Shown: positions 2,614 through 59,969 of the stretch, one piece after another
Layout: each line of letters starts with the position of its first letter
Numbering within the stretch: the first letter of the stretch is position 1
Virus record (IMG/VR): IMGVR_UViG_3300031994_000063
Length of the DNA stretch: 64,000 nucleotides
DNA from: a virus
Taxonomy: Duplodnaviria > Heunggongvirae > Uroviricota > Caudoviricetes
Direction: 5' to 3' (one strand)
Translations under genes and position numbers: made by a program
Notes under the pieces: model-generated
What the model was told of the DNA's origin: nothing
Databases searched by the model: none
The model's input: only the letters and a program-made list of their open reading frames with translations

Positions 2614-2689
2614 GGGAACACACAGCAAGTATTTTTGATTTAACAAGTAATTAAATTTGGGTTTTAAAAGTACAGTTAAAAATGTTCCC
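2614..2689 (+). ncRNA. hairpin-bounded repeat element (GGGAACA..CACAGCAAG .. UGUUCCC), copy a
   Basis: 5' gggaaca pairs with 3' tgttccc. Conserved ACAGCAA follows the 5' stem. Member of a family of 12 or more copies. Confidence 0.5.
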
Positions 2690-3934: not shown

Positions 3935-3963
3935 CAAAAAGGAATCTAACAGCAATTGATATA

Positions 3964-4045
3964 GACTTCAGACGGTTAGCTTAGTGGCTTAAAGCCTTGG
4001 ATTTTACCAAGAGAACGTAGGTTCGAATCCTGCACCACCTTAGTT
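3964..4045 (+). tRNA. tRNA-like (D-arm gctt-agtggctta-aagc, T-arm gtagg-ttcgaat-cctgc); anticodon unresolved
   Basis: Canonical D- and T-arms are visible. Acceptor pairing and anticodon loop could not be resolved by eye. Confidence 0.3.
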
Positions 4046-4132
4046 TTAATGATTCCGACATATACTTGGAAGCGTGACCTTGAAAAGCCAAGCCCAATCC
4101 ATCAGTGGCGGTAAATTGTCCAAGTTTTTAAT

Positions 4133-5505: not shown

Positions 5506-5647
5506 GGAAACATACAGCAAACATCTATTGATAGCATTTGACTGATAATCAAAGGGTCGTGAGTTCGAGTCTCACCCTCCCCACAAAAGGGAATAAAACT
5601 TGGGGAGGTAGCTCAGTTGGTAGAGAAAAATCAAAAAAATGTTTCCG
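5506..5647 (+). ncRNA. hairpin-bounded element copy b enclosing a circularly permuted tRNA-Ile(GAT)-like unit
   Basis: Closing helix ggaaacat/atgtttcc. Inside: anticodon stem tttga/tcaaa with loop ctgataa, variable gggtc, T-arm gtgag-ttcgagt-ctcac, 3' acceptor cctcccc. After a 17-nt linker comes the 5' acceptor ggggagg plus D-arm tagctcagttggtagag. Confidence 0.5.
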
Positions 5648-5748
5648 AAAATCATAGGGTAGGAATGGAGTTTGGTAACGCAGGAAGTATCCAAGGTTCT
5701 CCACGTTAAATAAAAAAACTGCGAGGTTTATCACTTGCATCGTTTTAT

Positions 5749-5821: not shown

Positions 5822-5957
5822 CAAATTGGTGGTTCAGTAAGAGGATTGCGCAAGGCGGTACTAAAAGAAACTAGAGAGTAGTGAATCCTATGGATAGGTG
5901 AATAAATTCTGTAGGAACGCAGCCTATCGGCAACGTGGGTTCGAATCCCACACCATC

Positions 5958-6075
5958 AACTAAGGATACTTACAGCAAATGTAACTTTGTTACAATTTCT
6001 TGGTTCGAATCCAAGCTAAACCTATGGTTTAAGCACCCATTCGTGGGTATTGGTATATTAAAACAAAAGTATCCG
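5958..6075 (+). ncRNA. hairpin-bounded element copy c (ggatact..tacagcaa..agtatcc) with internal T-arm and UUCG hairpin
   Basis: Closing helix ggatact/agtatcc. Internal cttgg-ttcgaat-ccaag and ccca-ttcg-tggg. Confidence 0.45.
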
Positions 6076-6464: not shown

Positions 6465-7493
6465 ATGAAGAAGATTTTTTTAATGTTGGCACTTGTTTGT
6501 GCCGTTGTGAGTGCAAATGCACAGATTGCAACAGAGAACAGTAATGCTTTCGATAACGTTGGGGTTGGTGTTACTGCTGGTGTATCTACACCGCTTGATT
6601 TCAACTCCGTGTTCCCTTTGAACACAAACGTTGGCTTGAAGATTACTAAGGATATTACACCAGTAATCGGATTCCAGATTGAGGGTCTTGCCGTACTCAA
6701 CGACAATCATTTCAGTGACCTTAAGACCGCTGTGAAGGCAACTAATGTCGGACTTAATGGCGCATTGAATTTGTCAAACCTTTTTTGGGGCTACAAGGGT
6801 ACTCCGCGAGTGTTTGAGGTTAGCACCGTTACGGGTCTTGGATGGCTTCATACATGGAACACATCTAAGAATAATCTGACCGCAAAGACTGGTCTTGACC
6901 TTGCGTTTAACATTGGCAAGAATAAGGCACATAGTTTGGTATTGACACCAGCGGTGTATTGGAACTTGAATAAGATTGACGCAATTCAGTTCAATAAGAA
7001 GGGCGCACAGTTGGCACTTAACTTGACTTATGTGTATCATTTTAAGACTAGCAACGGAACACATCATTTCAAGACATACGATGTTGGTGCAATGACCAAC
7101 GAGATTAATTATCTGCGTGGAAAACTTGATGAGTGTGAGAAACGTGAGCCGAAGGTTGTTGAGAAGATTGTTGAGGTTAAAACTCCAACTACTGATGCAG
7201 CAGTAGTGAAGAATGGAAATAACTCTTGGGTTGTTACATTTGCTACAGCAAGTTCAGTATTGACAAATGAGGCTAAGTTCATTCTTAACCAAGTTGGGGA
7301 TAATGCAGTTGTAGATGTTACTGCAACAGCAAGTCCTGATGGCTCAAGAGAGTTTAACCAGCGTCTCTCTGAGAAGAGAGCGGCAGTTGTTGCCGATTAC
7401 CTATCAAAGCGTGGAGTGAAAGTTAATAGTTTCGCTGGCAAGGGCGTAAGTGCCGAGAGTGGTAGGTCTGCTGTTGTTAAGACAGTTCAGTAA
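6465..7493 (+). CDS. OmpA-family outer-membrane protein (signal peptide, beta-barrel-like N-domain, OmpA-like C-domain)
   Basis: MKKIFLMLALVCAVVSANAQ signal peptide. C-terminal SPDGSREFNQRLSEKRAAVVADYL is OmpA-like. Visibly higher GC than surrounding genes. Confidence 0.6.
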   Translation: MKKIFLMLALVCAVVSANAQIATENSNAFDNVGVGVTAGVSTPLDFNSVFPLNTNVGLKITKDITPVIGFQIEGLAVLNDNHFSDLKTAVKATNVGLNGALNLSNLFWGYKGTPRVFEVSTVTGLGWLHTWNTSKNNLTAKTGLDLAFNIGKNKAHSLVLTPAVYWNLNKIDAIQFNKKGAQLALNLTYVYHFKTSNGTHHFKTYDVGAMTNEINYLRGKLDECEKREPKVVEKIVEVKTPTTDAAVVKNGNNSWVVTFATASSVLTNEAKFILNQVGDNAVVDVTATASPDGSREFNQRLSEKRAAVVADYLSKRGVKVNSFAGKGVSAESGRSAVVKTVQ

Positions 7494-7744: not shown

Positions 7745-7816
7745 GCGAGTGTAGTTCAATGGTTAGAATGGGACCCTTCCAAGGTTCATATGACGGTTCG
7801 ATTCCGTTCACTCGCT
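7745..7816 (+). tRNA. tRNA-Gly(TCC)
   Basis: Perfect acceptor gcgagtg/cactcgc. Anticodon loop cttccaa. T-arm gacgg-ttcgatt-ccgtt. Confidence 0.65.
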
Positions 7817-7822
7817 CAACGT

Positions 7823-7971
7823 GGAAACGTACAGCAATGTATATCGTTTTAAAAAGCATTCCAAGCTAGGGGTCGCAGGTTCGAGTCCTGTCCGCCACTC
7901 AATTTTATAAACTATAATGTGGCGGTAGCTCAGTTGGATTAGAGCACTAAAAATAAACAACAAACGTTTCC
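7823..7971 (+). ncRNA. hairpin-bounded element copy d enclosing a permuted tRNA-like unit (3' half then 5' half)
   Basis: Closing helix ggaaacg/cgtttcc. Inside: T-arm gcagg-ttcgagt-cctgt plus 3' acceptor ccgccac, then a 21-nt linker, then 5' acceptor gtggcgg plus D-arm tagctcagttggattagagc. Confidence 0.5.
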
Positions 7972-7988
7972 TTTTTAAAACAATAAAA

Positions 7989-8573: not shown

Positions 8574-8701
8574 GGAAGCAAACAGCAATATTTGTTTAAA
8601 ACAGCTAATCGTAATTGATTTCGTGGGTTCGAATCCCACACTTTCCTAGATGAAAGTTGGTGGAGTGGGTAAACACGGCAGTCCAAAAACAATTGTTTCC
8701 G
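8574..8701 (+). ncRNA. hairpin-bounded element copy e (ggaagcaa..acagcaa .. ttgtttcc) with internal T-arm gtgggttcgaatcccac
   Basis: Terminal complementarity with one G·U. Internal T-arm plus acceptor-like helix actttc/gaaagt. Confidence 0.45.
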
Positions 8702-9270
8702 ATTATGCGCCTATGGGGGAATTAGTAGACCCGTTAGTCTTAGGAACTAATGTTGAAATATACGTATCAGTGCAAGTCTGATTAGGCGTACAAAAGGTGC
8801 TACGACAAGACTGAGGAAGCCAATTTGATAGTGGCGAGTTCGTATAACGCTGTAGTTAAATGGTATTTGAGTAACAGCCTTTATTAATAGGTATAGGTCA
8901 GTAGGCTTGGAAGCAGCCATCTGTTAAAGAGTGACAGTACTCAGTAAGTGGTGAGGTAATATGTTTTATGGGTTTACACCTCGTGCAAAAACCCTAGGTG
9001 CATCTAGATAATTTGGGAGTTGCAAATCCCTAACTGGCGAGAGACGAGAGGTCGAAGTCGGAGAGTCTGGAATATAAGACCGAATGAGGCTCGTGAAGTC
9101 AAGCTAGAGAACCTTTAAAGCCGCTGCTGGACTCTTGGACGAAACAGTAAACGTAAATCGTGAGGCGTAAAGTTAACTGCGCTGTCTTTGGCGTAACAGC
9201 ACACCTGTAACTATTTATTTTTAGTTGATATTTATTATTATTAAATAATAGGTATCAACTTTTTAATATT

Positions 9271-10716: not shown

Positions 10717-10760
10717 CAACGTATCTAGGAAGCCCAGTTGCGCCTAGCTGCATGTTAGTA

Positions 10761-10913
10761 GGAACGTACAGCAGTTTGATTTAAATTTACAAAACATTTT
10801 TAATTATTAATCAGACTAGACGAAGATAAGAGAAGCGTTAAATAATCATTGCGAGGCACTTATCTATGCTCTTCGGAGCGAATGCCGAGTCAAGGCAGTA
10901 AATTGACCGTTCC
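10761..10913 (+). ncRNA. hairpin-bounded element copy f (ggaacgtacagcag .. cgttcc)
   Basis: Terminal helix. Internal UUCG hairpin gctc-ttcg-gagc. T-tract after the 3' stem. Confidence 0.45.
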
Positions 10914-10946
10914 TTTTTCTTTGAACGCAATTGACACAAAATAAAT

Positions 10947-11101
10947 GGAAACGTACAGCAGTTGACGAATCAAATTACATATTCAACTTAAAATCTCCAT
11001 GATTTTAATTAGGCAAAGGGTCGCATACCGCATTATAATAGCGAATAATAGTAACTAATTGTGATGGTCTGAATAAATGACTAGAATAAACCTACGTTTC
11101 C
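10947..11101 (+). ncRNA. hairpin-bounded element copy g (ggaaacgta cagcag .. tacgtttcc)
   Basis: 9-bp terminal complementarity. T-tract follows. Confidence 0.45.
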
Positions 11102-18369: not shown

Positions 18370-18704
18370 AGGAGAAGCCGCATATTAGGTATACAGATGC
18401 ATTTTTATACGGTGAGGAATCTAGAACAGAACGCATTAGTCTGTAATAATGTGCCAAAGGTTCGATGTCAGGGAAGGTTACTTTGGAAATATATTTAGTG
18501 GGTACACACAGCAAAATTATTTTTTCAAACAAACTGTTAATTTGTGTAAAACGTAGGTTCGATTCCTACCCCATCCGCATTTTTAACTATAACATTTGGA
18601 TGGGTTGAAATGTTGGTTTTATGTACCCTTTTTCTAAAAAAAAGTTAATGAATTTGGCCGTTTCAATTTTTTTTCGTATATTTGCGCCATAAAAGTATAA
18701 AAAA

Positions 18705-22177: not shown

Positions 22178-22250
22178 GGAAACATACAGCAAGTATTAAG
22201 AATTTTTAAGAGCAAAACTTTTAATTTTGATTTCTAAAAACATGTTTCCG
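22178..22250 (+). ncRNA. hairpin-bounded element copy h
   Basis: ggaaacat acagcaag ... atgtttcc. Confidence 0.45.
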
Positions 22251-22277: not shown

Positions 22278-22838
22278 ATGGCAGTAGGTGTTATCATTGC
22301 AAGAATACAGCCCATACATAAAGGGCATCTTGAGTTAATACGGCAAGCACTAAACGAGAATGAAAATGTTCTTCTGCTCGTTGGTTCTGCCGATAAACTC
22401 AATAAAAGGAATCCAATACCAATTGCTATGAGATTGGAACTCGCTAATAAGGCGATAGAAGAGGCATTTAAAGAGGACTCTAAAAGGGTTAGAATACAAC
22501 CATTAGCAGACCTTACAGATGAATCGGACAACTCTCATGATTGGGGCTTTTATCTCTATAGTCACATTGTTGGGTTTACAAAATCTCCAGAGTTTACAAT
22601 ATATTACTCTGATGGTTTTGAGATAATTATGCAGTGGTTTCCACCTTTCATTACGAGAGATTTCGTATCATTCAAACTTAATGCAAGGGGAACTATCCAC
22701 AATAGTCTGTCTGCTACGAAAGTAAGGGAAATGATTCTTAAAGAGGATATTGAAAGCCTTAGAGAAGCAGTTCCAACTTGCGTTATAGAAAATGCAATGA
22801 TTTTGAAACATTTTATTGAAGCGTTTAAAGACGTATAA
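22278..22838 (+). CDS. nicotinamide/nicotinate mononucleotide adenylyltransferase (NadM-type)
   Basis: GVIIARIQPIHKGHLELIRQA matches the GRFQPxHxGH nucleotidyltransferase motif of archaeal-type NMNAT. Confidence 0.7.
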   Translation: MAVGVIIARIQPIHKGHLELIRQALNENENVLLLVGSADKLNKRNPIPIAMRLELANKAIEEAFKEDSKRVRIQPLADLTDESDNSHDWGFYLYSHIVGFTKSPEFTIYYSDGFEIIMQWFPPFITRDFVSFKLNARGTIHNSLSATKVREMILKEDIESLREAVPTCVIENAMILKHFIEAFKDV

Positions 22839-23053: not shown

Positions 23054-23500
23054 CAATTTTTTATCATGGGCTTGTAATGGATTTGACAGCAATGCATTTG
23101 GTAAGAAACAAGCAGTGGGCATACACTTGAAATAGCAAAAAAAATATAAACGGCGAGAATGTTAATTCTCCTGCTTACGAGTACGCTATTGCAGCGTAAG
23201 TAAGCCGAGAGGCTAGGCTCTTAGGAACAGAACATCCTAGCATTCTTTCTTTAGTCATCTTTTAGTTTTCCTTGTTTTCACAAAACAAGGTGGTCTCAAA
23301 GGCGGTGTCTTCGGACACTTTGGGGAAGCTTGTATAATTTCTTATGGAATGGTTGTTTGGACCGCAGTTCGACTCTGCGCAAGTCCACTTAACTACTTGA
23401 AAATCAAACGCTTAACAAAATTTAAGAAAAAACTTCTTGAAAATTTTGGAACTTTCAAAAATTTTATATATCTTTGCATTGTTAAACAAAAAGACATACA

Positions 23501-23841: not shown

Positions 23842-23906
23842 GGAAACTTACAGCAAATTATTCTTAACATCAAATTGTCACTTTGAAACGTTTAGAAAAG
23901 GTTTCC
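23842..23906 (+). ncRNA. hairpin-bounded element copy i
   Basis: ggaaac ttacagcaa ... ggtttcc. Confidence 0.45.
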
Positions 23907-24474: not shown

Positions 24475-25588
24475 TGCCGTAGACAACGGTAAAAATGGGT
24501 TTTATGTGGTTAAACAATCCATATCTATGGTAACTTCGGGAGCCATAATTCTAGAGAACGTGTACTAGAAAAAAATGAATTGGGGAAGGTATTCTATAAT
24601 GGTGTAAAGAATTGGAGCTTGGGATAGAAGCCCACCTCGTAAGAGGAAGCAGTTTACTGATTATAATAATCCAAAATGGAAATAATACCCAAAAGAATAA
24701 GCCGATTCTAAGAGGAAATATCTTGTGAAAGATATAAGGCTGATGGCTAGCTTTCGTAGCCAGATAGAAGGATAATCCAGTGATGGGATAAATGAGACGG
24801 ACATTGACAACTAAGCCGACTCAGATGCTCTGGTTTCCCAGAGCATTTCACTGAAAAGCATATGGTACGGTATGTCGTTCGGTAGGTAAACTGTGGGACA
24901 TACTACCTAGGTTAACCGCTTAGGTTGAGTAGTGATACAATAGATTACCATATGGAACTCGATACAATAGTCACCAGTTGGCGTGTTGGGTTCAAGTAAA
25001 CATTCGTCTTAACGTGAAAGGCGTGGTCTATAAGCGTTAAGAACCGTAAGGCTGAGAATGGGTATTAGTGCTACAGACCTGTGGTGGGTTTGGCATAGGA
25101 AGGCGATTTAGTGGGCTGTGTTCAAAAGACACGGATGCTAAGGGTCGCACCTCGTCTTCCATTAGTTGTGAGTTGTAGCTCAAGTGGTAGAGCAGCCGAC
25201 TTGAAATCAGCGTGTTACAGGTTCGATTCCTGTCGATTCTAATAATAGAATTATAGAAGCAAAAGTGTGCGACACTGAGCAGATAAAATGCACTTATCTC
25301 TCCTGCAATATGGAGGCATCGGTGACTCGCAAGGAATCCGATGAACGAGTAAAAGTAGTCATCTGAGTTAACAGGAGGCATCCTGTGAATCCGCAAGAGC
25401 TTGGTGGTGAAATGAATGTTATGATTCTGTACCGAGAGGTTTAAATCAGTAAGAGTTTGGTAGTTTTCGCAAAACTATCGTGCATGATGTCTACGTCTGC
25501 CGTAAGGTAGCGTGTGAAGAGCAAGTTCCAACGCTTGTATAAAGGCATCAACAATAAGGTCAAATTCTCAGCCTTTTTGTATTTATAT

Positions 25589-25713
25589 AGGGATTTAGCT
25601 TAATTGGCAAGAGTAATTTGTTGCGACTTAAGGAATAAAGCACTCTCGACTTCGGAACAGAGTGTGCCTTTAACTGTTAATAAACGATGGCGGTTCGAGT
25701 CCGTCAGTCCCTG
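25589..25713 (+). ncRNA. tRNA-like with ~50-nt insertion (contains repeat tctcgacttcggaacaga)
   Basis: Perfect acceptor agggatt/agtccct. D-arm tagcttaattggcaagag. T-arm ggcgg-ttcgagt-ccgtc. Total 125 nt. Confidence 0.35.
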
Positions 25714-26385: not shown

Positions 26386-26458
26386 GGGAACTTACAGCAA
26401 TGACTATATGGAATTTGCTTGAAACGAATACAACCGAAAAAAGTTCCCTTCAGCACAA
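26386..26458 (+). ncRNA. hairpin-bounded element copy j
   Basis: gggaactt acagcaatg ... aagttccc. Confidence 0.45.
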
Positions 26459-26773: not shown

Positions 26774-26839
26774 GGAAGCATACAGCAATGTTTTAATAGG
26801 ACTTGATTTGTAATCAAATATTCTAGAAAAATGTTTCCG
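26774..26839 (+). ncRNA. hairpin-bounded element copy k
   Basis: ggaagcat acagcaatg ... atgtttccg followed by a T-tract. Confidence 0.45.
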
Positions 26840-28054: not shown

Positions 28055-28145
28055 GGGCATATGGCAGAGTGGTTTAATGTGCTGAACTCTAAATTCAGTA
28101 TGGGCTTGAGAAAGTTCATCGTGGGTTCGAATCCTACTATGCTCG
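28055..28145 (+). tRNA. class II tRNA with anticodon CTA (putative amber suppressor)
   Basis: Acceptor gggcata/tatgctc. D-region tggcagagtggtttaatgt. Anticodon stem ctgaa/ttcag with loop ctctaaa. Long variable arm. T-arm gtggg-ttcgaat-cctac. Confidence 0.5.
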
Positions 28146-28244
28146 CTACAGCTAGTACAAAGTTAAAAATTGTTAAAGTTGAACTGATTATTTGGTTAGT
28201 TCACCTTTTTTTCGTACCTTTGCATCAATAAAACAATAAACAGC

Positions 28245-29220: not shown

Positions 29221-29721
29221 ATGAAAGATAAATTAAGAATATTGGGTGTAGAATTACTCAATTCAAATTTGACGATTGGCACAGTAGAACATTGCACTAG
29301 TGGTTTACTTGGCGCATCCATATCAAGTATGTGTGGACTAGATACAGTTTATTGCGGAACAATAGTTGTTGTTGACCAACCCCATATGGAGAAACTATTA
29401 GATGTATCGCCTAACGCAATAAAAAACAATGGGCTTGTAAGTTCCCAAGTGGCTTGCCAAATGGCTCTAAATGGTCTTTATAAGTTAAATACAGATATTT
29501 GTGTTGCGGTGGTTGGTAATGTATTGCCTACGGAAGACTTTAATGAGGATACTTATAATGTCGTTTGGATTTGTATTGCGACAATGACAGATAAAAAAGT
29601 AGATTTTAAATATAGCAAAATACAAGTAGATGGATTACGAGGCCAAAACATTGAAACTGTAATTGAGTCTGCTTTAGAAACTCTTATAGTTGAAATTAAA
29701 CACATTACTGTTGAAAAATAA
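29221..29721 (+). CDS. pncC: CinA-C/PncC-like NMN deamidase
   Basis: LTIGTVEHCTSGLLGASIS matches the CinA C-terminal domain motif (lT.A.AESCTGG). Confidence 0.6.
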   Translation: MKDKLRILGVELLNSNLTIGTVEHCTSGLLGASISSMCGLDTVYCGTIVVVDQPHMEKLLDVSPNAIKNNGLVSSQVACQMALNGLYKLNTDICVAVVGNVLPTEDFNEDTYNVVWICIATMTDKKVDFKYSKIQVDGLRGQNIETVIESALETLIVEIKHITVEK

Positions 29722-30089
29722 TGGACTGTGTATTTTGTGACATCCAAAAGGATAGGATAATCTATCAAGATTCTTTATGGATTGCTATTTTAGATGGTTA
29801 TCCAGTTTCGGAAGGGCATACCCTATTAATTCCCAAAAGGCATTGCGAAACCTATTTTGATTTAAACCAAGTGGAATTGGGCACTCTTATTGGTGCAATT
29901 GACCGCGTTAAAGAAATACTTGATTCTAAATACAAGCCAAATGGGTATAACATAGGGGTGAATTGTGGCGAGGCTGCTGGGCAAACCGTTATGCATTGCC
30001 ATATACACGTTATACCTAGATATAACGGTGATTGTGAAGACCCAAGAGGGGGTGTGAGGGGTGTCATTCAATCTAAACAAAAATATTAA
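29721..30089 (+). CDS. HIT-family hydrolase
   Basis: HCHIHVIPR histidine-triad motif. Overlapping start (ATG A) with the pncC-like gene. Confidence 0.75.
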   Translation: MDCVFCDIQKDRIIYQDSLWIAILDGYPVSEGHTLLIPKRHCETYFDLNQVELGTLIGAIDRVKEILDSKYKPNGYNIGVNCGEAAGQTVMHCHIHVIPRYNGDCEDPRGGVRGVIQSKQKY

Positions 30090-39463: not shown

Positions 39464-39468
39464 CAAAG

Positions 39469-39560
39469 AAGCATACAGCAAGTATCTCTGTGGAGGAATG
39501 GTATACTCAATAGTCTGCAAAACTATTTTTTGTGGGTTCGAATCCCACCTTTAATGCTTC
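39469..39560 (+). ncRNA. hairpin-bounded element copy l with internal T-arm gtgggttcgaatcccac
   Basis: gaagcat acagcaag ... atgcttc. A terminator-like hairpin follows at 39574-39604. Confidence 0.45.
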
Positions 39561-40312
39561 TTGTTTTATATCAAAGCACTCAGAAATGGGTGCTTTTTTT
39601 CATTTTTAGATATTCATTAAGAACTGATTTATATCAATTAAAAGTGTAAAAATAACAATTTTACTTTGGAAATTTTGGGTATTAATTATATTTTTCATAT
39701 CTTTGCAATGTTGTAAATGATTAGTGTGTTCGCACACATATGATTGATTTACATCAAAATTAAGGGCATTTTTTGAAAATGGGTAAATGAAATGATTGTT
39801 TTTAAAAAATTATATAATATATATTATAGGAAGTGAGTGAATAATTGTTGATATAGAAAACTTGAAATTTAATCTTGGTTATGTAATCACTAGAAAGCAA
39901 AGAACAGTGAGTAACTTGAAAAAATAATAGGAAGAAGTGCAAAAGAAAGTTTCTCATCTGTAGGATTTATAAAGCTAGGGTATTATAAATGGTCTAAGTT
40001 GAATTTGGCTAATGAGTATTACAAAAACCTATATTGTTATTTTTCATATCTATATCAGATTGTTAAATTTAAATTGAAAGGGAAATAATTATGAAGAAGA
40101 TAGCAAATTTTCTACATGCTTGGCTTAACAACTATGCTAGCATGACTCCCACTGGAATGATTCCATTGGTGTAATGACAGCTTGGGAAGTTTTGCCCTAG
40201 CCAAACGAAAGCAACAGTAAGTGCAGCGGAATTGTTAGGGGTTTAGACCCTTTAACAGTTCCTAAAAAAAAAAGAAGTAAGTAAATAAGTAAGTGTAAAA
40301 AGGGAAATAATT

Positions 40313-41427: not shown

Positions 41428-41900
41428 TGGAATACCCAGAATTATATTTAGATTGGATAGAATATCTGCATGAAAAAAAAATATATGGAGCATGGAAAAA
41501 CGACTTATCGTTATGTGCGTATGCATGTAAAAACGCTCCTAATCCAAGGCGCTATATTTTTGGCTTATGCGGAAAATCTGACTACATAGACACAATTATC
41601 AATTCATTTGGCGTAGCAAACGATAAAGGTCTTAGATATATAATAGATAGTATTGTTCGTGATTTAAAATGGACTATTGCTTATTACAGTTCATCAAAAA
41701 TAGATTGGTTTCAAATATATCATAATTTTTATACTTTAAGGCATCCACCAATTACATTATCTAGAAAGTTATCCAAAAAACTTTATAGGGCTAACAACAA
41801 AATAAGCAGTTGCTATCACTCAAGAGAAAAAGAAGAACAACCTTGGTATGATAAAAGCTACGAAAAAAATAAATATAATAAAAAAGCATGGAGAAAATGA
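41427..41900 (+). CDS. hypothetical protein
   Basis: 157 aa. ATGA overlap with the upstream gene. Confidence 0.5.
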   Translation: MEYPELYLDWIEYLHEKKIYGAWKNDLSLCAYACKNAPNPRRYIFGLCGKSDYIDTIINSFGVANDKGLRYIIDSIVRDLKWTIAYYSSSKIDWFQIYHNFYTLRHPPITLSRKLSKKLYRANNKISSCYHSREKEEQPWYDKSYEKNKYNKKAWRK

Positions 41901-42481
41901 CAAATCGTCCTTGTCTGGACATGAATAAACTTATCGAAGGTATAAGAGAAATTTGTGAAAATAGCGGTATTAATGAAGAAGCGTTCTTGGAACTTATCAA
42001 TAAATGTTTTATTGGTTGGTTTAGCCGTTCAATGGCAACAGCTCTATTTGCATTTTGTAAGGATGAAGAAGGCGATTGGTGCGTCCTAGCATCAGAGCGT
42101 GGAGAAGAGGCTGCTGATTTCAGAGGTATGTGGAATTGCACTTGTGGTTATCTTGATTATGATGAAACCACCAAAGAATGTGCTGTGCGTGAGTGTTTTG
42201 AGGAAACTGGAGTTAAACTCCCAATTGAAAGCCTCATTTTTATTGGATATGAGGACGACCCAGTTAAAGCAAATAGGCAGAACGTTACTTTCCGTTTTGC
42301 TGCCAAAATAGAAGACCGCATTACATCTGATTTTAAATTCTCTAAAGAACATAATGAAGGTAAAGAGGTGGGCAAGATTGCTTGGGTTAAGGTCAAGGAC
42401 ATTGATAATTATGAATGGGCTTTTAATCATAAGAATCGTATAGTAGAAATTTTCAATCAAGTGATAAATGAACATAATTAA
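41888..42481 (+). CDS. NUDIX hydrolase
   Basis: GGYLDYDETTKECAVRECFEETGV matches the Nudix box Gx5Ex7REUxEExGU. Confidence 0.75.
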   Translation: MEKMTNRPCLDMNKLIEGIREICENSGINEEAFLELINKCFIGWFSRSMATALFAFCKDEEGDWCVLASERGEEAADFRGMWNCTCGYLDYDETTKECAVRECFEETGVKLPIESLIFIGYEDDPVKANRQNVTFRFAAKIEDRITSDFKFSKEHNEGKEVGKIAWVKVKDIDNYEWAFNHKNRIVEIFNQVINEHN

Positions 42482-43262: not shown

Positions 43263-44450
43263 ATGAAAAAATTAACGACATATGAGTTTATTGAAAAAGC
43301 CAAGAAAGTCCACGGAGATAAATATGATTATTCAAAAGTTGAATATGTTAACAGTAGAACAAAAATTTGCATTATTTGCCCACAACACGGAGAGTTTTGG
43401 CAAACCCCAAATGCGCATTTAATGAAAGAAGGGTGTCCTAAATGTAAGGGCGAAAACGTATCAAAAGAAAATAGATGCACAACAAATGAATTTATTGAGA
43501 AAGCAAAAAAGGTTCATGGAGATAAGTATGATTACTCAAAGGTAGATTACAAAAATAATAGTACAAAGGTTTGCATTATATGCCCTATTCATGGCGAGTT
43601 TTGGCAAACACCAAACTCGCATTTAAATGGGTGCGGATGCCCAAAATGCGGTATAGAAACAATAAGGAAAAATAACATTGGGAAGAAAAGAAATGGCGGT
43701 AAAACAGCATTAAGCATTGATAGTTTTATTGAGAAAGCAAAAAAGGTTCATGGAGATAAGTATGATTACTCAAAAGTGAAATATACCAACAACAAAACCA
43801 AAGTTTGCATAGTTTGTCCCATTCATGGCGAGTTTTGGCAAACCCCAAATGCACACTTATTGGGTTTTGGGTGCTATAGATGTGGTCGTGAATCTATGTC
43901 CACAAAGCAGACAAAAAACACTGAAATTTTTATAGAAGAGGCAAAAAAGGTTCATGGGAATAAATATGATTATTCAAAAGTGAAATATACAATTGGAAAT
44001 AAAAAAGTGACCATTATATGTCCTATTCACGGTGAGTATTTTCAAAGACCATATAATCACCTACGAGGTCAAGGATGTCCTTACTGTAATGAAAGCAGCT
44101 TAGAAAAAGAAATTAATGACATTTTATGCGAACACAATATAAACTTCATAAAACAATGTAAAAAAGATACTTTTGGGTGGTTAGGTAAACAAAGTTTGGA
44201 TTTTTATTTACCAGAATATAATATTGCTATTGAATGCCAAGGGGTACAGCATTTCGGACCGTATGCTTTTTTTGGTGGCGATAAAGGATTTTATAAACAA
44301 ATTGAAAGAGATTATAAAAAATTAAAAAAATGTATTGAGCATAATATAAAAGTATTGTATTATACAAATCCATCATTTGACACATTATATGAAGTTATAA
44401 CAGATAAAGAAGAATTAATAAAAATAATAACAAATGAAAATTATAAGTAA
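43263..44450 (+). CDS. homing-endonuclease-like protein: 4 tandem Zn-binding modules plus Vsr/DUF559-like PD-(D/E)xK nuclease domain
   Basis: Four ~75-aa repeats (KVHGDKYDYSKV..ICPIHGEFWQTPN.HL.GCPKC). C-terminal LDFYLPEYNIAIECQGVQHF ... DYKKLKKCIEHNIKVLYY matches the DUF559/Vsr core. Confidence 0.55.
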   Translation: MKKLTTYEFIEKAKKVHGDKYDYSKVEYVNSRTKICIICPQHGEFWQTPNAHLMKEGCPKCKGENVSKENRCTTNEFIEKAKKVHGDKYDYSKVDYKNNSTKVCIICPIHGEFWQTPNSHLNGCGCPKCGIETIRKNNIGKKRNGGKTALSIDSFIEKAKKVHGDKYDYSKVKYTNNKTKVCIVCPIHGEFWQTPNAHLLGFGCYRCGRESMSTKQTKNTEIFIEEAKKVHGNKYDYSKVKYTIGNKKVTIICPIHGEYFQRPYNHLRGQGCPYCNESSLEKEINDILCEHNINFIKQCKKDTFGWLGKQSLDFYLPEYNIAIECQGVQHFGPYAFFGGDKGFYKQIERDYKKLKKCIEHNIKVLYYTNPSFDTLYEVITDKEELIKIITNENYK

Positions 44451-57075: not shown

Positions 57076-58482
57076 ATGAACGAACTATTATTTAAAAAAG
57101 TTGATGATAGAATCAAACACCTAGTTGACCTCATACAAGCGTCAATCAAAAACACCCATTTTGAAGGAAAGGTATATTTGGTTGGCGGTTGTGTGCGCGA
57201 TGCATTGTTAGGATTGCCCATTAAAGACATCGACATCGTTGTTGAAATGAAGAACGGGGGGATGCTGTTTGCTGGATATATGGCAATGAAACATCAATGC
57301 TATGTTCAGAATACTAATCCAGTGATATTTGAAAACTATGGAACTGCGAAGTTCCAATTATTCAAGAATGATGAATTCAAAGATATAGAGATTGAATGTG
57401 TCCAAACTAGAAAGGAACAGTACCACAAGGAAAGCAGAAACCCAGAAACTGTATTCGGAAGCCTTGAAGAAGACGCAAAGAGGCGTGACCTTACCATTAA
57501 TTCTCTATATTATAACATCAGTACAGAGAAAATACATGATTTTAACGGCTCTTTAGATGACTTGGTAAATCAAGTAATAAAGACTCCAACTGACCCAGAT
57601 GTTACATTCAATGATGACCCATTGAGAATTCTACGTGTAATTCGTTTTTCAACTAGATTCGGTTGGGATATTGAAAAAAACACTTGGTTAGGTATGGTTA
57701 AAAATGCGCACCGTATTCAAATTATTTCACAAGAAAGAATTAGTGATGAAATATCCAAGATTCTACTTTGTGAAAAACCAAGTATCGGTATTAGGAAAAT
57801 GTATTTCTGTGGCATTCTGCATAGAGTGATGCCCGATATTTATGATACAACCTACGCTTATGAGTCAAGGAATCCTATGGTTAGCACATTTGACCATACG
57901 ATGAACGTGCTAGATACTGTTCAGCCTTATTTAGAAAACAGATTAGCTGCTTTATTCCATGATGTTGGTAGAATCATAACAGAGAAGCGTAGGGATGTAA
58001 TGCCAGATAAGTTTAGTGCAGAAATTGCTGCAAGCGACTTGAAGGACATGAAATACCCTAATTACATCATTAAATCTGTTGAAACTGCTATTAAGCATCA
58101 TAGAGGTTTTGCAAGTTATGCTGATGGTATATTGCCTCCAGATAAGAAGATTAGGAAATTCATCAACTTAACTGGTGATGATTTAGGAGCAACTGTTGAC
58201 CTAATGAACGCCAATAATCTCTATTGTACTTTTGGTAAGAAGAAAAGACAAGTTCTTGATATTCTCAATAGAATTGAAGAAATGGAAGACGCTGAAAAAG
58301 CAGCAAATGTTAAACTTCCAATTTCTGGGAATGACATCATAAAAGAATTTAAAATCAAACCTTCTCCAACAATCGGCATATTGCTTGAGGCAGTCAAAGA
58401 TGCTTACTTTGAGAATCCTAATATGACTAAGGATGAAGCATTTGAGATTGTAGAGAACAAATTGAAGAGCCTAACAGTCTAA
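57076..58482 (+). CDS. cca: tRNA nucleotidyltransferase (CCA-adding enzyme) with HD domain
   Basis: YLVGGCVRDALLGLPIKDIDIVV is the class II polymerase-beta head motif. LAALFHDVGR is the HD motif. 468 aa is typical of bacterial CCA enzymes. Confidence 0.8.
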   Translation: MNELLFKKVDDRIKHLVDLIQASIKNTHFEGKVYLVGGCVRDALLGLPIKDIDIVVEMKNGGMLFAGYMAMKHQCYVQNTNPVIFENYGTAKFQLFKNDEFKDIEIECVQTRKEQYHKESRNPETVFGSLEEDAKRRDLTINSLYYNISTEKIHDFNGSLDDLVNQVIKTPTDPDVTFNDDPLRILRVIRFSTRFGWDIEKNTWLGMVKNAHRIQIISQERISDEISKILLCEKPSIGIRKMYFCGILHRVMPDIYDTTYAYESRNPMVSTFDHTMNVLDTVQPYLENRLAALFHDVGRIITEKRRDVMPDKFSAEIAASDLKDMKYPNYIIKSVETAIKHHRGFASYADGILPPDKKIRKFINLTGDDLGATVDLMNANNLYCTFGKKKRQVLDILNRIEEMEDAEKAANVKLPISGNDIIKEFKIKPSPTIGILLEAVKDAYFENPNMTKDEAFEIVENKLKSLTV

Positions 58483-59023: not shown

Positions 59024-59386
59024 ATGGGTACACTATGTAAAAACTGTCCTTTCAAAGGCATTAAAACTGAAACGGATTCTTGTACTACTCTATTTGCAAA
59101 AAAATATCATAACTCTTGTGTTACGTATGATATTACTAGACATAAGGAGAAACAAGAAAGGGAAGAATTCATAAAGGAACTTGAGGAGTTTACTAATGAA
59201 AAGAAAACAGCGAAAACACTTGATGAAACTACTAAAGTTAAAAAGGTATCAAAACCAAGAAAATCAAGAAAGCCTAAAAAAGAAACAAACGATAAAGGTA
59301 TAGAAACAAAAGAAACTATTGCAGAAATTGTTGGCAGTATTGCTAATGCTGCTGTGGTTTGCGAAAATAATAATAAAACAGAATAA
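59024..59386 (+). CDS. hypothetical basic protein with N-terminal Cys cluster
   Basis: MGTLCKNCPFKG..SCTT..HNSC. Lys-rich C-terminal half. Confidence 0.45.
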   Translation: MGTLCKNCPFKGIKTETDSCTTLFAKKYHNSCVTYDITRHKEKQEREEFIKELEEFTNEKKTAKTLDETTKVKKVSKPRKSRKPKKETNDKGIETKETIAEIVGSIANAAVVCENNNKTE

Positions 59387-59393
59387 ATTATAT

Positions 59394-59969
59394 ATGAATA
59401 AAATCTTAATTTTAATAGATAGTCAATATGGCTTTCTAGAAGGTGGCAATCTTCCAGTGGAAGGCGCAACCCATAAAATGAATCGTCTTGCTGAATTTAT
59501 ACGTGAAAACGGTCCAGCATATGATAAGATATTTCTAACGGCAGATTGGCATCCGCATACGCATTGTTCATTCAAGGCAAACGGTGGGGTATGGCCAGAA
59601 CATTGCGTACAACATACGCATGATGCAGCAATCTATCAGCCAATTATTGATGCTTTGAACGCTATTAATAGTGACTACATTGTTTTGACTAAAGGGGTTG
59701 ATGAAGACCACGAGGAATATTCAGTGTTTAAGAATGAAAAGTCTAATGCATTGCTTACCAACATATGCGAAATGATGAAAGTGACTGATATTGACATTTG
59801 CGGTATCGCATTAGACGTATGTGTATTTGATTCTTTGAAAGATGGATTAAGGGCATTCCCAAATACTAATTTTCACCTTCTTATTGATTTTTGCCCAGCA
59901 ATAACAAAAGATGGGGAGGAAAAAGTTATAAACTTTATCAATAATTCAGAAAGAGTAAATATTGGATAA
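59394..59969 (+). CDS. pncA: nicotinamidase/pyrazinamidase
   Basis: LILIDSQYGF (catalytic Asp), DWHPHTHCSF and WPEHC (metal site), LTKG (Lys), DICGIALDVCV (catalytic Cys). Start set at MNKILIL. Confidence 0.8.
   Translation: MNKILILIDSQYGFLEGGNLPVEGATHKMNRLAEFIRENGPAYDKIFLTADWHPHTHCSFKANGGVWPEHCVQHTHDAAIYQPIIDALNAINSDYIVLTKGVDEDHEEYSVFKNEKSNALLTNICEMMKVTDIDICGIALDVCVFDSLKDGLRAFPNTNFHLLIDFCPAITKDGEEKVINFINNSERVNIG

What the first reader, a model, noticed from the sequence alone, without database searches (positions are those of the whole stretch)
7856..7950. Second permuted tRNA-like unit: 3' half (T-arm plus ccgccac) upstream of 5' half (gtggcgg plus D-arm)
T-arm gcagg-ttcgagt-cctgt and 3' acceptor ccgccac are followed after 21 nt by the complementary 5' acceptor gtggcgg and a canonical D-arm tagctcagttggattagagc. 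The unit is again enclosed by a GGAAACG / CGUUUCC helix (copy d), and it follows an intact tRNA-Gly(TCC). Two independent units with different acceptor sequences but the same topology argue against a random rearrangement. The anticodon arm is less clear here than in the 5550 unit.
Basis: seen in the sequence. Interest (0 to 1): 0.7.

Follow-up and report, generated by a model that had tools for sequence, protein, structure and literature searches.

The report
Permuted tRNA-like RNA in phage clamp
A huge gut or rumen phage encodes a complete tRNA sequence in swapped order (back half first), held inside a conserved RNA clamp. It belongs to a large phage-only family and most likely acts as a tRNA mimic rather than an ordinary decoding tRNA.

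Summary
Window 7823-7971 (+) holds a 7-8 bp terminal helix (GGAAACGT/ACGTTTCC), an invariant ACAGCAA, then a tRNA 3' half, a 19-nt linker and a tRNA 5' half.

Rejoining the halves in silico gives a perfect cloverleaf, which ARAGORN calls tRNA-Gly(UCC). The "unclear" anticodon stem is split: CUA comes from the 5' half and GC from the 3' half.

I recovered 24 distinct orthologues from IMG/VR and JGI contigs. They keep the topology with compensatory changes in the acceptor, T and split anticodon stems. 20 of 24 sit 3-6 nt after a canonical tRNA-Gly.

The linker starts with C and ends with T, like true inter-tRNA spacers here, so RNase P and 3'-end processing are likely.

Several results argue against a decoding tRNA. 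The anticodon triplet is labile between near-identical orthologues. The unit duplicates an adjacent normal tRNA-Gly(UCC). One lineage has deleted it. The same clamp wraps degenerate tRNA-likes, bare anticodon hairpins and non-tRNA cargo.

The closest known kind is the Y-RNA-like tRNA mimic YrlA (sub-threshold Rfam hit), but its Ro60-binding motif and a Ro60 gene are absent. There is no bulge-helix-bulge motif.

Best reading: a new phage tRNA-mimic small RNA (about 0.5). True splice-matured permuted tRNA: about 0.22.

The parts
7745..7817 (+). Canonical tRNA-Gly(UCC) directly upstream. Its 3' processing would create the 5' end of the unit, which begins after a 5-6 nt spacer.
   Evidence: ARAGORN and Rfam tRNA at 64.8 bits. 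In 20 of 24 orthologous loci a canonical tRNA ends 3-6 nt before the unit; 19 of these are tRNA-Gly.
7823..7830 (+). P1 5' strand of the clamp, GGAAACGU.
   Evidence: It pairs with 7964-7971. In the window, 11 of 12 sites carrying the 5' motif have a matching 3' strand within 230 nt, against 9.5% in controls. Across 66 cassettes, pairs 3, 4, 5 and 7 covary (A-U/G-C/U-A), and G.U wobbles place the helix in the + strand RNA.
7831..7837 (+). Invariant single-stranded motif ACAGCAA, usually preceded by U. It is the signature of the clamp cassette.
   Evidence: 26 copies in the window against 9.4 expected, with 0 of 100 shuffles reaching that count. Present in all cassettes retrieved. It is also found in 20 of the 22 loci that were retrieved through the 3' tail only and are not cut off at the contig end; the other two carry the deletion.
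7838..7855 (+). 5' joining strand (UGUAUAUCGUUUUAAAAA). GUUU(U)A can pair with UAAAC at 7953-7957 to form a helix P2.
   Evidence: AUCGUUUA is conserved in the Gly family. P2 is 91% paired but does not vary, so there is no covariation evidence for it.
7856..7869 (+). Anticodon hairpin of the 3' half: G30-C31, loop AUUCCAA (anticodon UCC), G39-C40, then U41-A42-G43.
   Evidence: Loop positions 32, 33, 34 and 38 are conserved; positions 35-37 vary among orthologues.
7870..7891 (+). Variable loop GGGUC and T-arm GCAGG-UUCGAGU-CCUGU.
   Evidence: The T-stem is 100% paired, and 3 of its 5 pairs show changes on both sides.
7892..7899 (+). 3' acceptor strand CCGCCAC plus discriminator U.
   Evidence: Acceptor stem is 98.5% paired, and 4 of 7 pairs change on both sides. 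This is the only + strand CCGCCAC in the window.
7900..7918 (+). Linker CAAUUUUAUAAACUAUAAU. It has the make-up of an inter-tRNA spacer: trailer-like start (C74) and leader-like end (AAU, U at -1).
   Evidence: 29 of 31 canonical tRNAs of the window are followed by C, and 20 of 31 are preceded by T. All 24 Gly-family linkers start with C and end with T. Gly-family linkers run from 16 to about 94 nt, the longest in L306; other families have linkers as short as 5 nt. Sequence is otherwise free.
7919..7949 (+). tRNA 5' half: acceptor GUGGCGG, U8 A9, D-arm GCUC-AGUUGGAUUA-GAGC, A26, then C27-U28-A29 (first three nucleotides of the anticodon stem).
7950..7963 (+). A-rich 3' joining strand AAAAUAAACAACAA.
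   Evidence: Nearly invariant in Gly-family units retrieved through the 5' motif. An A-rich stretch precedes P1' in cassettes generally, with 57-84% A at the last five positions.
7964..7971 (+). P1 3' strand ACGUUUCC, followed by a U-run (7972-7976).
   Evidence: The flank after P1' is T-rich and carries C at only 1% of cassettes at the first position, so P1 lacks the C74 signature of real acceptor ends.

Best explanation
The unit is a small structured phage RNA: a complete tRNA body written in circularly permuted order and carried inside a phage-specific clamp cassette.

The cassette has three parts: a 7-8 bp terminal helix GGAAACN(U)/(A)NGUUUCC, an invariant (U)ACAGCAA on the 5' side, and an A-rich strand on the 3' side.

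Proposed steps, each marked shown or inferred:

1. The unit is transcribed with the tRNA-Gly block. Its 5' end comes from 3' processing of the upstream tRNA-Gly, and its 3' end lies at the U-run after P1' (inferred).
2. It folds into a tRNA L-shape. The acceptor stem is closed by the linker. The anticodon stem is a three-way junction (C27-A29:U41-G43, G30-C31:G39-C40 plus loop, and the clamp arm) (structure shown by covariation).
3. The linker carries the same C74 and U(-1) signatures as genuine spacers between tRNAs in this genome. So RNase P and the 3'-end machinery, together with the phage CCA-adding enzyme, probably open the acceptor. This would leave a two-piece, CCA-ended tRNA look-alike held together by the clamp, as happens to Mycobacterium smegmatis YrlA (inferred).
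4. It works as a tRNA mimic, not as a decoder. The clamp motif would be the handle for an unidentified protein. The tRNA-like body, with its evolutionarily changeable anticodon loop, would be the bait or tether for tRNA-directed proteins. My guess is host anticodon nucleases or RNA repair and quality-control factors (inferred, and the weakest step).
For: Structure and conservation:
- Rejoining gives 7/7 acceptor and 9/9 D plus anticodon-stem pairs.
- 96% of cells are paired with 9 doubly compensated pairs, against about 40% in slid controls.
- The minimum-free-energy fold recovers the arms.
- There are 24 distinct orthologues.

Same topology as a known tRNA mimic:
- Rfam YrlA hits at 34.6, 33.3 and 18.2 bits on three units of the window.

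Processing signature:
- C follows the discriminator in 29/31 canonical tRNAs and 24/24 Gly-family linkers. T precedes position 1 in 20/31 and 24/24.
- The linker tolerates about 94 nt.
- A CCA-adding enzyme is encoded at 57076-58482.

Not a decoder:
- Anticodon loops among the 24 orthologues are UCC in 16 (14 with the exact loop AUUCCAA and 2 with other loop changes), UUC x2, UAG x2, and UAC, UCG, UUG and ACGCUAU once each. One of the UCC loops has A33.
- L297 and L308 differ at 4 of 7 loop positions but at 1 of 139 other positions.
- The discriminator does not track the anticodon.
- Canonical tRNA-Gly(UCC) is adjacent in the window, and a canonical tRNA directly precedes the unit in 20/24 loci.
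- Canonical Ile(GAU), Asn(GUU) and Lys(UUU) tRNAs also duplicate other units of the window.
- The unit is precisely deleted in L289/L292.

Family context:
- 14 cassettes lie in the window. Their cargo ranges from perfect permuted tRNAs to degenerate ones (closed 3-6 nt acceptor loops, 6-nt anticodon loop), bare anticodon-like hairpins, and non-tRNA cargo.

Phage-restricted:
- Only 2 plausible hits in one genome each of 185,579 cellular species, both on short MAG contigs.
Against: - No binding protein is identified. No Ro60/TROVE gene was found among the 62 + strand ORFs of at least 90 aa in the window.
- The YrlA motif GNCGAAN0-1G is absent.
- The rejoined sequence is a flawless tRNA with U33, a purine at 37 and all tertiary-pair nucleotides. 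That is more than a mimic strictly needs.
- UCC is still the anticodon in two thirds of the orthologues.
- The junction always falls inside a helix (D-stem after positions 21-24, or anticodon stem after 28-31). That is exactly what a nick-sealing ligase would need, and such a ligase family is encoded (61409-62317).
- The decoy or tether function is a guess with no direct evidence.
- No RNA data were available.
- The orthologue sets were retrieved with exact patterns from the clamp, so the invariance of the clamp is partly by construction.
Confidence: 0.5

Rival explanations
1. It is a genuine circularly permuted tRNA gene that matures into a decoding tRNA-Gly(UCC). RNase P and 3' processing open the linker. 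The clamp arms are trimmed back by exo- or endonucleases to the duplex, leaving a nick between A29 and G30 inside the anticodon stem. The phage nick-sealing RNA ligase closes it. This would be a splicing route without a bulge-helix-bulge motif or a splicing endonuclease.
For: - 18 of 18 rejoined units are called tRNAs by ARAGORN, and 16 have 7/7 plus 9/9 pairing.
- The rejoined focal sequence aligns over most of its length to canonical tRNAs in 334 phage records.
- Junctions lie within helices in every family.
- The linker has tRNA trailer and leader signatures and can be about 94 nt long.
- An RNA ligase of family PF09414 and a CCA-adding enzyme are encoded in the window.
- RlaP lies near cassettes in locus L156, and an RtcB domain was found in one of the 72 neighbouring ORFs (locus not identified).
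- Loop positions 32, 33, 34 and 38 are conserved, and G37 accompanies G36 in four variants.
Against: - The anticodon switches among Gly, Glu, Val, Arg, Leu and Gln triplets on one body, with no matching change of discriminator or acceptor.
- The unit is redundant with the adjacent canonical tRNA and dispensable in one lineage.
- The invariant ACAGCAA and the strongly conserved tail would be discarded sequence under this model.
- Cassette relatives cannot yield tRNAs.
- No trimming nuclease is identified.
- This ligase family and CCA-adding enzymes are generally enriched in Bacteroidota phages with tRNA arrays (PMC10879173), so they are not specific evidence.
- No contiguous version of this tRNA exists in IMG/VR.
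Confidence: 0.22
2. It is a true Y RNA (a YrlA relative) that binds a Ro60/Rsr orthologue encoded elsewhere in the phage genome or by the host, and works in RNA quality control as in Deinococcus and Salmonella.
For: - Sub-threshold YrlA hits on three units.
- Same module order and paired termini.
- A conserved 5'-strand motif sits in the same place as GNCGAAN0-1G (PMC4201824).
- Some jumbo phages carry TROVE proteins with tRNA-like partners (PMC7824862).
Against: - The score of 34.6 is below the gathering score of 69.
- The match comes from the tRNA-like part only, and the Ro-binding stems are not matched.
- GNCGAAN0-1G is absent.
- No TROVE domain appears among the 62 window ORFs scanned or among the 25 families shown (of 37 matched) for 72 neighbouring ORFs of related loci.
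- There are 14 cassettes in one window, versus 1-4 Y RNAs next to rsr in known cases.
- YrlA has no anticodon loop.
Confidence: 0.08
3. The clamp cassette is only a processing, termination or stability device of the tRNA array. The terminal helix plus U-run would act as a terminator or a 3'-exonuclease block. The permuted tRNA inside would be an evolutionary by-product with no function of its own.
For: - Cassettes sit between tRNAs like array members.
- P1' is followed by a T-rich run.
- The cargo is heterogeneous.
- The unit is lost in one lineage.
Against: - Compensatory changes keep the acceptor, T and split anticodon stems of the cargo intact across 24 orthologues.
- The D-stem and T-loop are invariant or nearly so.
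- Anticodon-loop geometry is conserved.
- This is purifying selection on the tRNA fold itself.
Confidence: 0.08
4. It is a chance similarity or a decaying pseudogene produced by rearrangement of a tRNA gene.
For: tRNA arrays are recombination-prone, and some cassette cargos are degenerate.
Against: - Conservation with covariation in independent samples and contigs.
- The same topology in at least four families with different acceptors and junction positions.
Confidence: 0.02

Closest known systems
YrlA, bacterial and mycobacteriophage Y-RNA-like tRNA mimics (Rfam RF02553; Chen et al. 2014, PMC4201824)
   Same: - The 5' and 3' ends pair in a terminal stem, with a conserved motif on its 5' strand.
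- Inside is a tRNA-like domain in the order T-arm, closed acceptor-like stem, D-arm.
- The top of the anticodon stem is formed between the two ends of that domain.
- M. smegmatis YrlA has a 7-bp acceptor, is cut by RNase P and receives CCA in vivo. That is what the linker signatures predict here.
- The YrlA model hits three units of the window sub-threshold.
   Different: - A different terminal motif: (U)ACAGCAA on a GGAAAC helix instead of GNCGAAN0-1G.
- No Ro60 gene nearby.
- A real 7-nt anticodon loop is present.
- The linker is a 16-94 nt spacer in this family rather than a small loop.
- A dozen or more cassettes per genome, sitting inside tRNA arrays.
- Restricted to phages.
Circularly permuted tRNA genes of Cyanidioschyzon merolae, some green algae and Thermofilum pendens (own knowledge; reviewed in PMC3400036 and PMC4238349, found)
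   Same: - The 3' half lies upstream of the 5' half on one strand.
- The acceptor ends are joined by a short linker that RNase P and a 3' nuclease would remove.
- Rejoining gives a canonical cloverleaf.
- Junction positions differ between genes.
   Different: - Those use a bulge-helix-bulge motif at the termini, the splicing endonuclease and a circular intermediate.
- Here the termini form a plain helix with a conserved single-stranded motif, and the junction is a three-way junction inside a stem.
- No endonuclease gene is present in the window.
- The anticodon is not conserved among orthologues.
Theta (minimal HDV-like) ribozymes next to tRNAs of Bacteroidota gut phages (PMC10879173)
   Same: - Small conserved RNA elements placed immediately 3' of phage tRNAs.
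- Found in the same kind of phage, which is rich in CCA-adding enzyme and DRB0094-type RNA ligase genes.
   Different: - Theta ribozymes start within +/-5 nt of the tRNA 3' end, 77% of them within +/-1 nt, and fold as a nested double pseudoknot that continues past P1'.
- The cassette starts 3-6 nt downstream and ends at P1' plus a U-run.
- No HDV-like Rfam hit at E up to 5.
Split tRNA genes of Nanoarchaeum equitans (own knowledge)
   Same: Two tRNA halves are brought together by an extra complementary helix outside the tRNA body.
   Different: There the halves are separate genes, joined at a bulge-helix-bulge motif by the splicing endonuclease and ligase. Here both halves are in one transcript, in permuted order.

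Membership tests
YrlA / bacterial Y RNA (RF02553) | tRNA-like domain ordered T-arm, closed acceptor-like stem, D-arm, enclosed by pairing of the RNA's 5' and 3' ends | tested here: met
   cmscan alignment, covariation, minimum-free-energy fold.
YrlA / bacterial Y RNA (RF02553) | Score at or above the Rfam gathering threshold (69 bits) | tested here: not met
   34.6 bits for 7851-7973, 33.3 for 5531-5648 and 18.2 for 8598-8702. The stems of the Ro-binding part are deleted or mismatched in the alignment.
YrlA / bacterial Y RNA (RF02553) | GNCGAAN0-1G motif near the 5' end (proposed Ro60 contact; PMC4201824) | tested here: not met
   The 5' region GGAAACGUACAGCAAUGUAUAUCGUUUUAAAAA contains no GNCGAA. 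The conserved motif is (U)ACAGCAA.
YrlA / bacterial Y RNA (RF02553) | Encoded within about 4 kb of a Ro60/Rsr (TROVE) gene on the same strand | tested here: not met
   No TROVE hit among 62 + strand ORFs of at least 90 aa in the 64-kb window, nor among the 25 families shown (of 37 matched) for 72 ORFs flanking related units. The rest of the genome was not available.
YrlA / bacterial Y RNA (RF02553) | Bound by Ro60 in vivo | not testable with these tools
   Needs immunoprecipitation.
Permuted tRNA genes (Cyanidioschyzon / Thermofilum type) | 3' half upstream of 5' half on the same strand, and rejoining yields a canonical cloverleaf | tested here: met
   7/7 plus 9/9 pairs. ARAGORN calls tRNA-Gly(tcc) after rejoining. 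The rejoined sequence aligns to canonical tRNAs.
Permuted tRNA genes (Cyanidioschyzon / Thermofilum type) | Precursor termini form a bulge-helix-bulge motif (two 3-nt bulges flanking a 4-bp helix) at the junction | tested here: not met
   By reading the sequence, the junction is a three-way junction with two 4-5 nt A-rich linkers between the anticodon stem and P2/P1. No opposed 3-nt bulges are present.
Permuted tRNA genes (Cyanidioschyzon / Thermofilum type) | A tRNA splicing endonuclease is available | tested here: not met
   No tRNA_int_endo domain in the window ORFs. The faint Sen54/Rpp14 hits of ORF 43263-44450 (E 0.006-0.009) belong to an HNH homing endonuclease (phrog_559, E 8.6e-85).
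Permuted tRNA genes (Cyanidioschyzon / Thermofilum type) | Orthologues keep the anticodon and act as the decoder for it | tested here: not met
   8 of 24 orthologues carry a different triplet and 2 more have other loop changes. Canonical tRNA-Gly(UCC) is adjacent in the window. The unit is deleted in L289/L292.
Permuted tRNA genes (Cyanidioschyzon / Thermofilum type) | Circular intermediate and mature contiguous tRNA detectable as RNA | not testable with these tools
   No RNA data. No contiguous DNA copy exists in IMG/VR.
Theta / HDV-like ribozymes | Nested double pseudoknot with the cleavage site at G1 within +/-5 nt (mostly +/-1 nt) of the tRNA 3' end, and a catalytic C in J4/2 downstream of P1' | tested here: not met
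   The cassette ends at P1' followed by a U-run. The proximal CGUUU gives only 5-6 pairs, with G1 unpaired (manual threading). No HDV-like Rfam hit at E up to 5.
Permuted (two-piece) tmRNA | tRNA-like domain in permuted order plus a tag reading frame | tested here: not met
   Only a 9.7-bit partial cyano_tmRNA hit on the T-arm and acceptor. No tag frame. The phage has an ordinary tmRNA at 23068-23390.
Retron non-coding RNA | Terminal inverted repeats with an AGC branching G, next to a reverse transcriptase gene | tested here: not met
   P1 plus ACAGCAA resembles the a1/a2 repeats plus AGC superficially. But no RVT domain is present in the window, and there are 14 copies.

The most novel reading that the evidence does not exclude
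These are the first circularly permuted tRNA genes of a bacterial virus, matured by a route unknown elsewhere. RNase P and 3' processing open the acceptor linker. The clamp arms are trimmed back to a nick inside the D or anticodon stem. A phage nick-sealing RNA ligase closes the nick. This would be tRNA splicing without a bulge-helix-bulge motif or a splicing endonuclease, and the easily exchanged anticodon would make the cassette a platform for evolving new decoders.
Probability: 0.2. Interest if true: 0.9.

Novelty: new variant of a known kind. Interest (0 to 1): 0.75.

Why it matters
Permuted tRNA-like RNAs are known from two settings. One is algal and archaeal genes that need the splicing endonuclease. 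The other is Ro60-associated YrlA RNAs.

This locus belongs to neither. It is a phage-only family with its own invariant clamp motif. It is present many times per genome in huge Bacteroidota-type gut and rumen phages, and it has an anticodon loop that changes between near-identical relatives.

- If it is a mimic, it points to an unrecognised layer of RNA-based manipulation of tRNA-directed host proteins, for example anticodon nucleases. It also implies an unknown protein that reads the clamp.
- If it matures into tRNA, it reveals a new tRNA splicing chemistry in the bacterial world.

Either way, standard tRNA finders miss these genes. Phage tRNA censuses, and the inferences about recoding and counter-defence built on them, are therefore incomplete.

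Tried and rejected
1. Normal intron-containing gene with a downstream 3' half. Rejected: CCGCCAC occurs once on the + strand.
2. Close relatives in the annotated phage collection. None found. The only Lak-phage match is an ordinary tRNA-Ile without the clamp, and an 828-aa ORF has no match there.
3. Known RNA families. At Rfam gathering thresholds only tRNA and tmRNA are found. In E-value mode only sub-threshold YrlA appears at the units, and nothing at the bare-hairpin cassettes.
4. HDV-like or theta ribozyme threading of the cassette. It does not fit (and manual threading).
5. Hammerhead, twister, pistol, hatchet and hairpin cores. No motif and no Rfam hit.
6. Kink-turn reading of P1 plus ACA plus GC. 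It lacks the tandem G.A pairs.
7. Retron-like reading. No reverse transcriptase is present.
8. P1 as an outer acceptor stem (7 bp, then U8, A9). No D-stem partner for CAGC exists, and the P1' flank lacks the C74 signature.
9. Pairing between the upstream tRNA trailer and the conserved AUCGUUUA. The trailers vary without covariation.
10. Ro60, splicing endonuclease, RtcB or polynucleotide kinase in the window. None found. The faint Sen54/Rpp14 hits belong to a homing endonuclease.
11. Cellular origin of the cassette. Only two probable phage contigs among MAGs.
12. A contiguous version of the tRNA in IMG/VR. None.
13. Solved-structure relatives of the ligase by sequence. None.
14. Literature searches for permuted tRNAs or tRNA mimics in bacteriophages. 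Only the YrlA work turned up.
15. One search contained a wrong T-loop pattern. Its output was discarded and redone.
Full report
**What is in the sequence**

The window is a phage-type tRNA array. ARAGORN finds 30 tRNAs and a tmRNA, all on the + strand. At gathering thresholds Rfam finds only tRNA and tmRNA.

- T-arm 7875-7891
- CCGCCAC 7892-7898
- discriminator U 7899
- 19-nt linker 7900-7918
- GUGGCGG 7919-7925
- D-arm 7928-7945

The whole unit is enclosed by GGAAACGU (7823-7830) paired with ACGUUUCC (7964-7971). The intact tRNA-Gly(UCC) lies at 7745-7817.

CCGCCAC occurs nowhere else on the + strand of the window. So the 5' half has no downstream partner and this is not a mis-read intron-containing gene. 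The minimum-free-energy fold of 7823-7971 recovers the terminal helix, T-arm, closed acceptor and D-arm by itself (z = -2.74).

**The anticodon arm**

The 5' half ends ...GAGC-A-CUA. The 3' half begins GC-AUUCCAA-GCUAG.

Joined, they give CUAGC/GCUAG, a 5-bp stem with a 7-nt loop (U33, anticodon UCC, A37). A systematic scan of every possible junction gave 7/7 acceptor pairs and 9/9 D plus anticodon-stem pairs, and only for a junction after position 28 or 29. The 5' half alone gives 7/9 and the 3' half alone gives 3/9.

ARAGORN does not see the locus as it stands. It calls the rejoined sequence tRNA-Gly(tcc), and it does the same for 18 of 18 rejoined units from this and related contigs. The rejoined sequence aligns over at least 80% of its length to canonical tRNAs in 334 phage records at 75-80% identity. 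No contiguous DNA version of this particular tRNA exists in IMG/VR.

**Conservation**

Pattern scans of IMG/VR and of JGI metagenomes recovered 24 distinct orthologues of this unit. The contigs reach up to about 400 kb, and by my reading of their sample names most come from rumen and gut samples.

On ten orthologues the proposed structure is 96% paired. Nine pairs show changes on both sides: 4 in the acceptor, 3 in the T-stem and 2 in the split anticodon stem. No shuffle reaches the observed covariation score, and structures slid by 1-3 columns give about 40% pairing. The 27:43 pair, which spans the break, is C-G in most and G-C in L090.

Other families show the same topology with different acceptors and junction positions:
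- an Ile(GAU) family, which includes window 5506-5646, with the junction after positions 21-24 inside the D-stem
- a Thr(UGU) family
- Cys(GCA) units

Chance and a decaying rearrangement are therefore excluded.

**The clamp is a cassette of its own**

ACAGCAA is over-represented: 26 copies against 9.4 expected. Wherever it follows a GGRANNNN word on the + strand, the complementary word lies downstream in 11 of 12 cases, against 9.5% in controls. Allowing one mismatch adds two more cassettes, giving 14 in the window.

Across 66 cassettes the helix is 7 bp. G1-C, G2-C and C6-G are nearly fixed, while pairs 3, 4, 5 and 7 covary. G.U wobbles place the helix in the + strand RNA. The helix is followed by (U)ACAGCAA, an A-rich strand precedes the 3' strand of the helix, and a T-rich run follows it.

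The cargo varies widely:
- perfect permuted tRNAs
- degenerate ones, for example 5964-6074 and 8574-8700 with acceptor loops of 3-6 nt, and 3941-4050 with a 6-nt anticodon loop
- cassettes holding only an anticodon-like hairpin, at 22178, 23842, 26386 and 26774. Such hairpins occur in 50% of A-tailed cassettes against 19% of shuffles.
- non-tRNA cargo, at 10760-10914 and 10947-11101

The cassette is essentially absent from one genome each of 185,579 cellular species. Of ten hits, only two look genuine, and both lie on short MAG contigs.

**Evidence that the acceptor linker is processed like a tRNA spacer**

In this window 29 of 31 canonical tRNAs are followed by C, mostly as CAA or CUA and never as CCA. 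20 of 31 are preceded by T, mostly as AAT or TAT.

All 24 Gly-family linkers begin with C and end with T. The flank after P1' carries C in only 1% of cassettes at its first position.

Linker sequence is otherwise free. Its length runs from 16 nt to about 94 nt in L306, with the rest of the unit unchanged. The phage encodes a CCA-adding enzyme at 57076-58482.

I infer that RNase P and the 3'-end machinery open the acceptor. This is what happens to the 7-bp acceptor of M. smegmatis YrlA (PMC4201824).

**Evidence against an ordinary decoding role**

1. The anticodon loop is labile.
   - Among the 24 orthologues it is AUUCCAA in 14.
   - The others are AUUUCAA x2 and AUUAGGA x2, and AUUACAA, AUUCGGA, AUUUGGA, AUUCCGA, CUUCCAG, AAUCCAA and ACGCUAU once each.
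   - Positions 32, 33, 34 and 38 are conserved, and positions 35-37 vary.
   - L297 and L308 differ at 4 of 7 loop positions and at 1 of 139 other positions. L298 and L301 differ only in the anticodon.
   - The discriminator and acceptor do not follow the anticodon.
   - An orthologous pair of bare-hairpin cassettes shows the same switch (GCA against GUA).
2. The unit is redundant. In 20 of 24 loci it starts 3-6 nt after a canonical tRNA, and 19 of those are tRNA-Gly, inside a Gly block. The window also has canonical Ile(GAU), Asn(GUU) and Lys(UUU) tRNAs that duplicate other units.
3. It is dispensable. In L289/L292 the unit is cleanly deleted, leaving only the tail after the tRNA-Gly.
4. An arm branching from the anticodon stem at 29/30 would clash with ribosomal contacts to that stem (established knowledge). 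So the unspliced form cannot decode.

**Comparison with known kinds**

The only Rfam family that responds is YrlA, the Ro60-associated tRNA mimic: 34.6, 33.3 and 18.2 bits on three units, against a gathering score of 69. The architecture is the same. The termini pair, a conserved motif sits on the 5' strand, and a tRNA-like domain follows in the order T-arm, closed acceptor, D-arm.

But the defining features fail. GNCGAAN0-1G is absent. The Ro-binding stems are not matched. No TROVE protein is found among 62 ORFs of the window or among the families reported for 72 neighbouring ORFs of related loci.

The algal and archaeal permuted tRNA genes share the gene order. They rely, however, on a bulge-helix-bulge motif and a splicing endonuclease. 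Neither is present: the junction is a three-way junction with A-rich linkers, and the faint Sen54 hit belongs to a homing endonuclease.

Theta ribozymes occupy a similar place in similar phages, but they have a different fold. Literature searches found no description of permuted tRNA genes, or of this clamp, in bacteriophages.

**Verdict**

The unit is one member of a large, phage-restricted family of clamp-cassette small RNAs, and its cargo is a complete, structurally conserved tRNA body in permuted order.

- I consider a tRNA-mimic role most likely (about 0.5). The RNA would be two-piece and CCA-ended after opening of the linker, with the clamp read by an unknown protein and the variable anticodon loop acting as a specificity element. 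The decoy or tether function is inferred, not shown.
- A real permuted tRNA gene, matured by trimming and nick sealing with the encoded PF09414 ligase, remains possible (about 0.22). It would be the more remarkable outcome.
- A classical Ro60 Y RNA is unlikely (about 0.08).
- A pure processing or terminator device is unlikely (about 0.08).
- A pseudogene is very unlikely (about 0.02).

**Caveat**

Orthologues were retrieved with exact words from the clamp or the tail, so the apparent invariance of those parts is partly by construction. No RNA-level data could be consulted.

Noticed in passing
window 25098-25574 (+): Strong but sub-threshold match to GOLLD RNA (RF02032; 82.3 bits against a gathering score of 150, E 7.6e-21). 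A tRNA-Ser(UGA) is embedded at 25169-25241, and an odd 125-nt tRNA hit follows at 25589-25713.
   Followed up: no
window 2614-2689, 3941-4050, 5506-5646, 5964-6074, 8574-8700, 10760-10914, 10947-11101, 18500-18628, 22178-22249, 23842-23906, 26386-26448, 26774-26838, 39467-39561: Thirteen further P1-(U)ACAGCA(A/G) clamp cassettes with very different cargo: permuted tRNA-likes for Ile(GAU) and Asn(GUU), degenerate tRNA-likes, bare anticodon-like hairpins (Lys UUU, Asp GUC, Ser UGA, Thr UGU), a Cys(GCA) tRNA-like in normal order, and about 130 nt of non-tRNA structure. The cassette itself looks like an undescribed RNA motif.
   Followed up: partly
L289 7986-8006 and L292 5998-6018 (the same sequence in both loci): In one related phage lineage the permuted unit is precisely deleted. 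The tRNA-Gly trailer CA runs straight into AAAAUAAACAACAAACGUUUCC, leaving an orphan tail and P1' strand.
   Followed up: yes
L306, reverse strand, about 260 nt ending at position 856 of the reverse-complemented locus: An orthologue whose acceptor linker is expanded to about 94 nt, while the clamp, both halves and the C74/U(-1) ends are unchanged.
   Followed up: partly
window 28055-28146 (+): A 92-nt tRNA with anticodon CUA (called tRNA-Pyl by ARAGORN) and a long extra arm. It is a likely amber suppressor, which hints that the phage may reassign UAG.
   Followed up: no
window 5829-5959 (+): A 131-nt tRNA-like element with a paired acceptor (UGGUGGU/ACCAUCA) and a normal T-arm, but about 60 extra nucleotides in the middle. 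It lies immediately upstream of cassette 5964-6074 and is not called by ARAGORN or Rfam.
   Followed up: no
window, 3' flanks of the 31 canonical tRNAs: 29 of 31 tRNAs are followed by C (CAA, CUA, CUU, CGA) and none by CCA. This is a genome-wide C74-only signature, alongside a phage-encoded CCA-adding enzyme.
   Followed up: partly
window 22278-22838, 29221-29721, 41888-42481, 59319-59969: A set of genes that look NAD-related: a cytidylyltransferase-like (possibly NMNAT-type) protein, CinA, NUDIX and isochorismatase/nicotinamidase. A HIT-domain protein lies at 29721-30089. My reading is a possible counter to NAD-depleting host defences.
   Followed up: no
window 6465-7493 and about 21 related loci: An OmpA-family protein of about 340 aa with an apparent signal peptide is syntenic with the Gly tRNA block in many related phages. 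TelA (8 ORFs) and TnpB/IS605 OrfB-like ORFs (4-6) also recur near cassettes. RlaP lies in L156 near four cassettes, and an RtcB domain was found in one neighbouring ORF whose locus was not identified.
   Followed up: partly
window 8795-9215 (+): A stretch of about 420 nt, richer in G+C than its surroundings, with no ORF and no Rfam hit. Its folding energy is no better than shuffles (z = +0.89), so its nature is unknown.
   Followed up: partly
window 23086-23092 (+): The phage tmRNA carries GACAGCAA just after its D-loop analogue (GGAUUUGACAGCAAUGC). This resemblance to the clamp motif may be coincidental.
   Followed up: no
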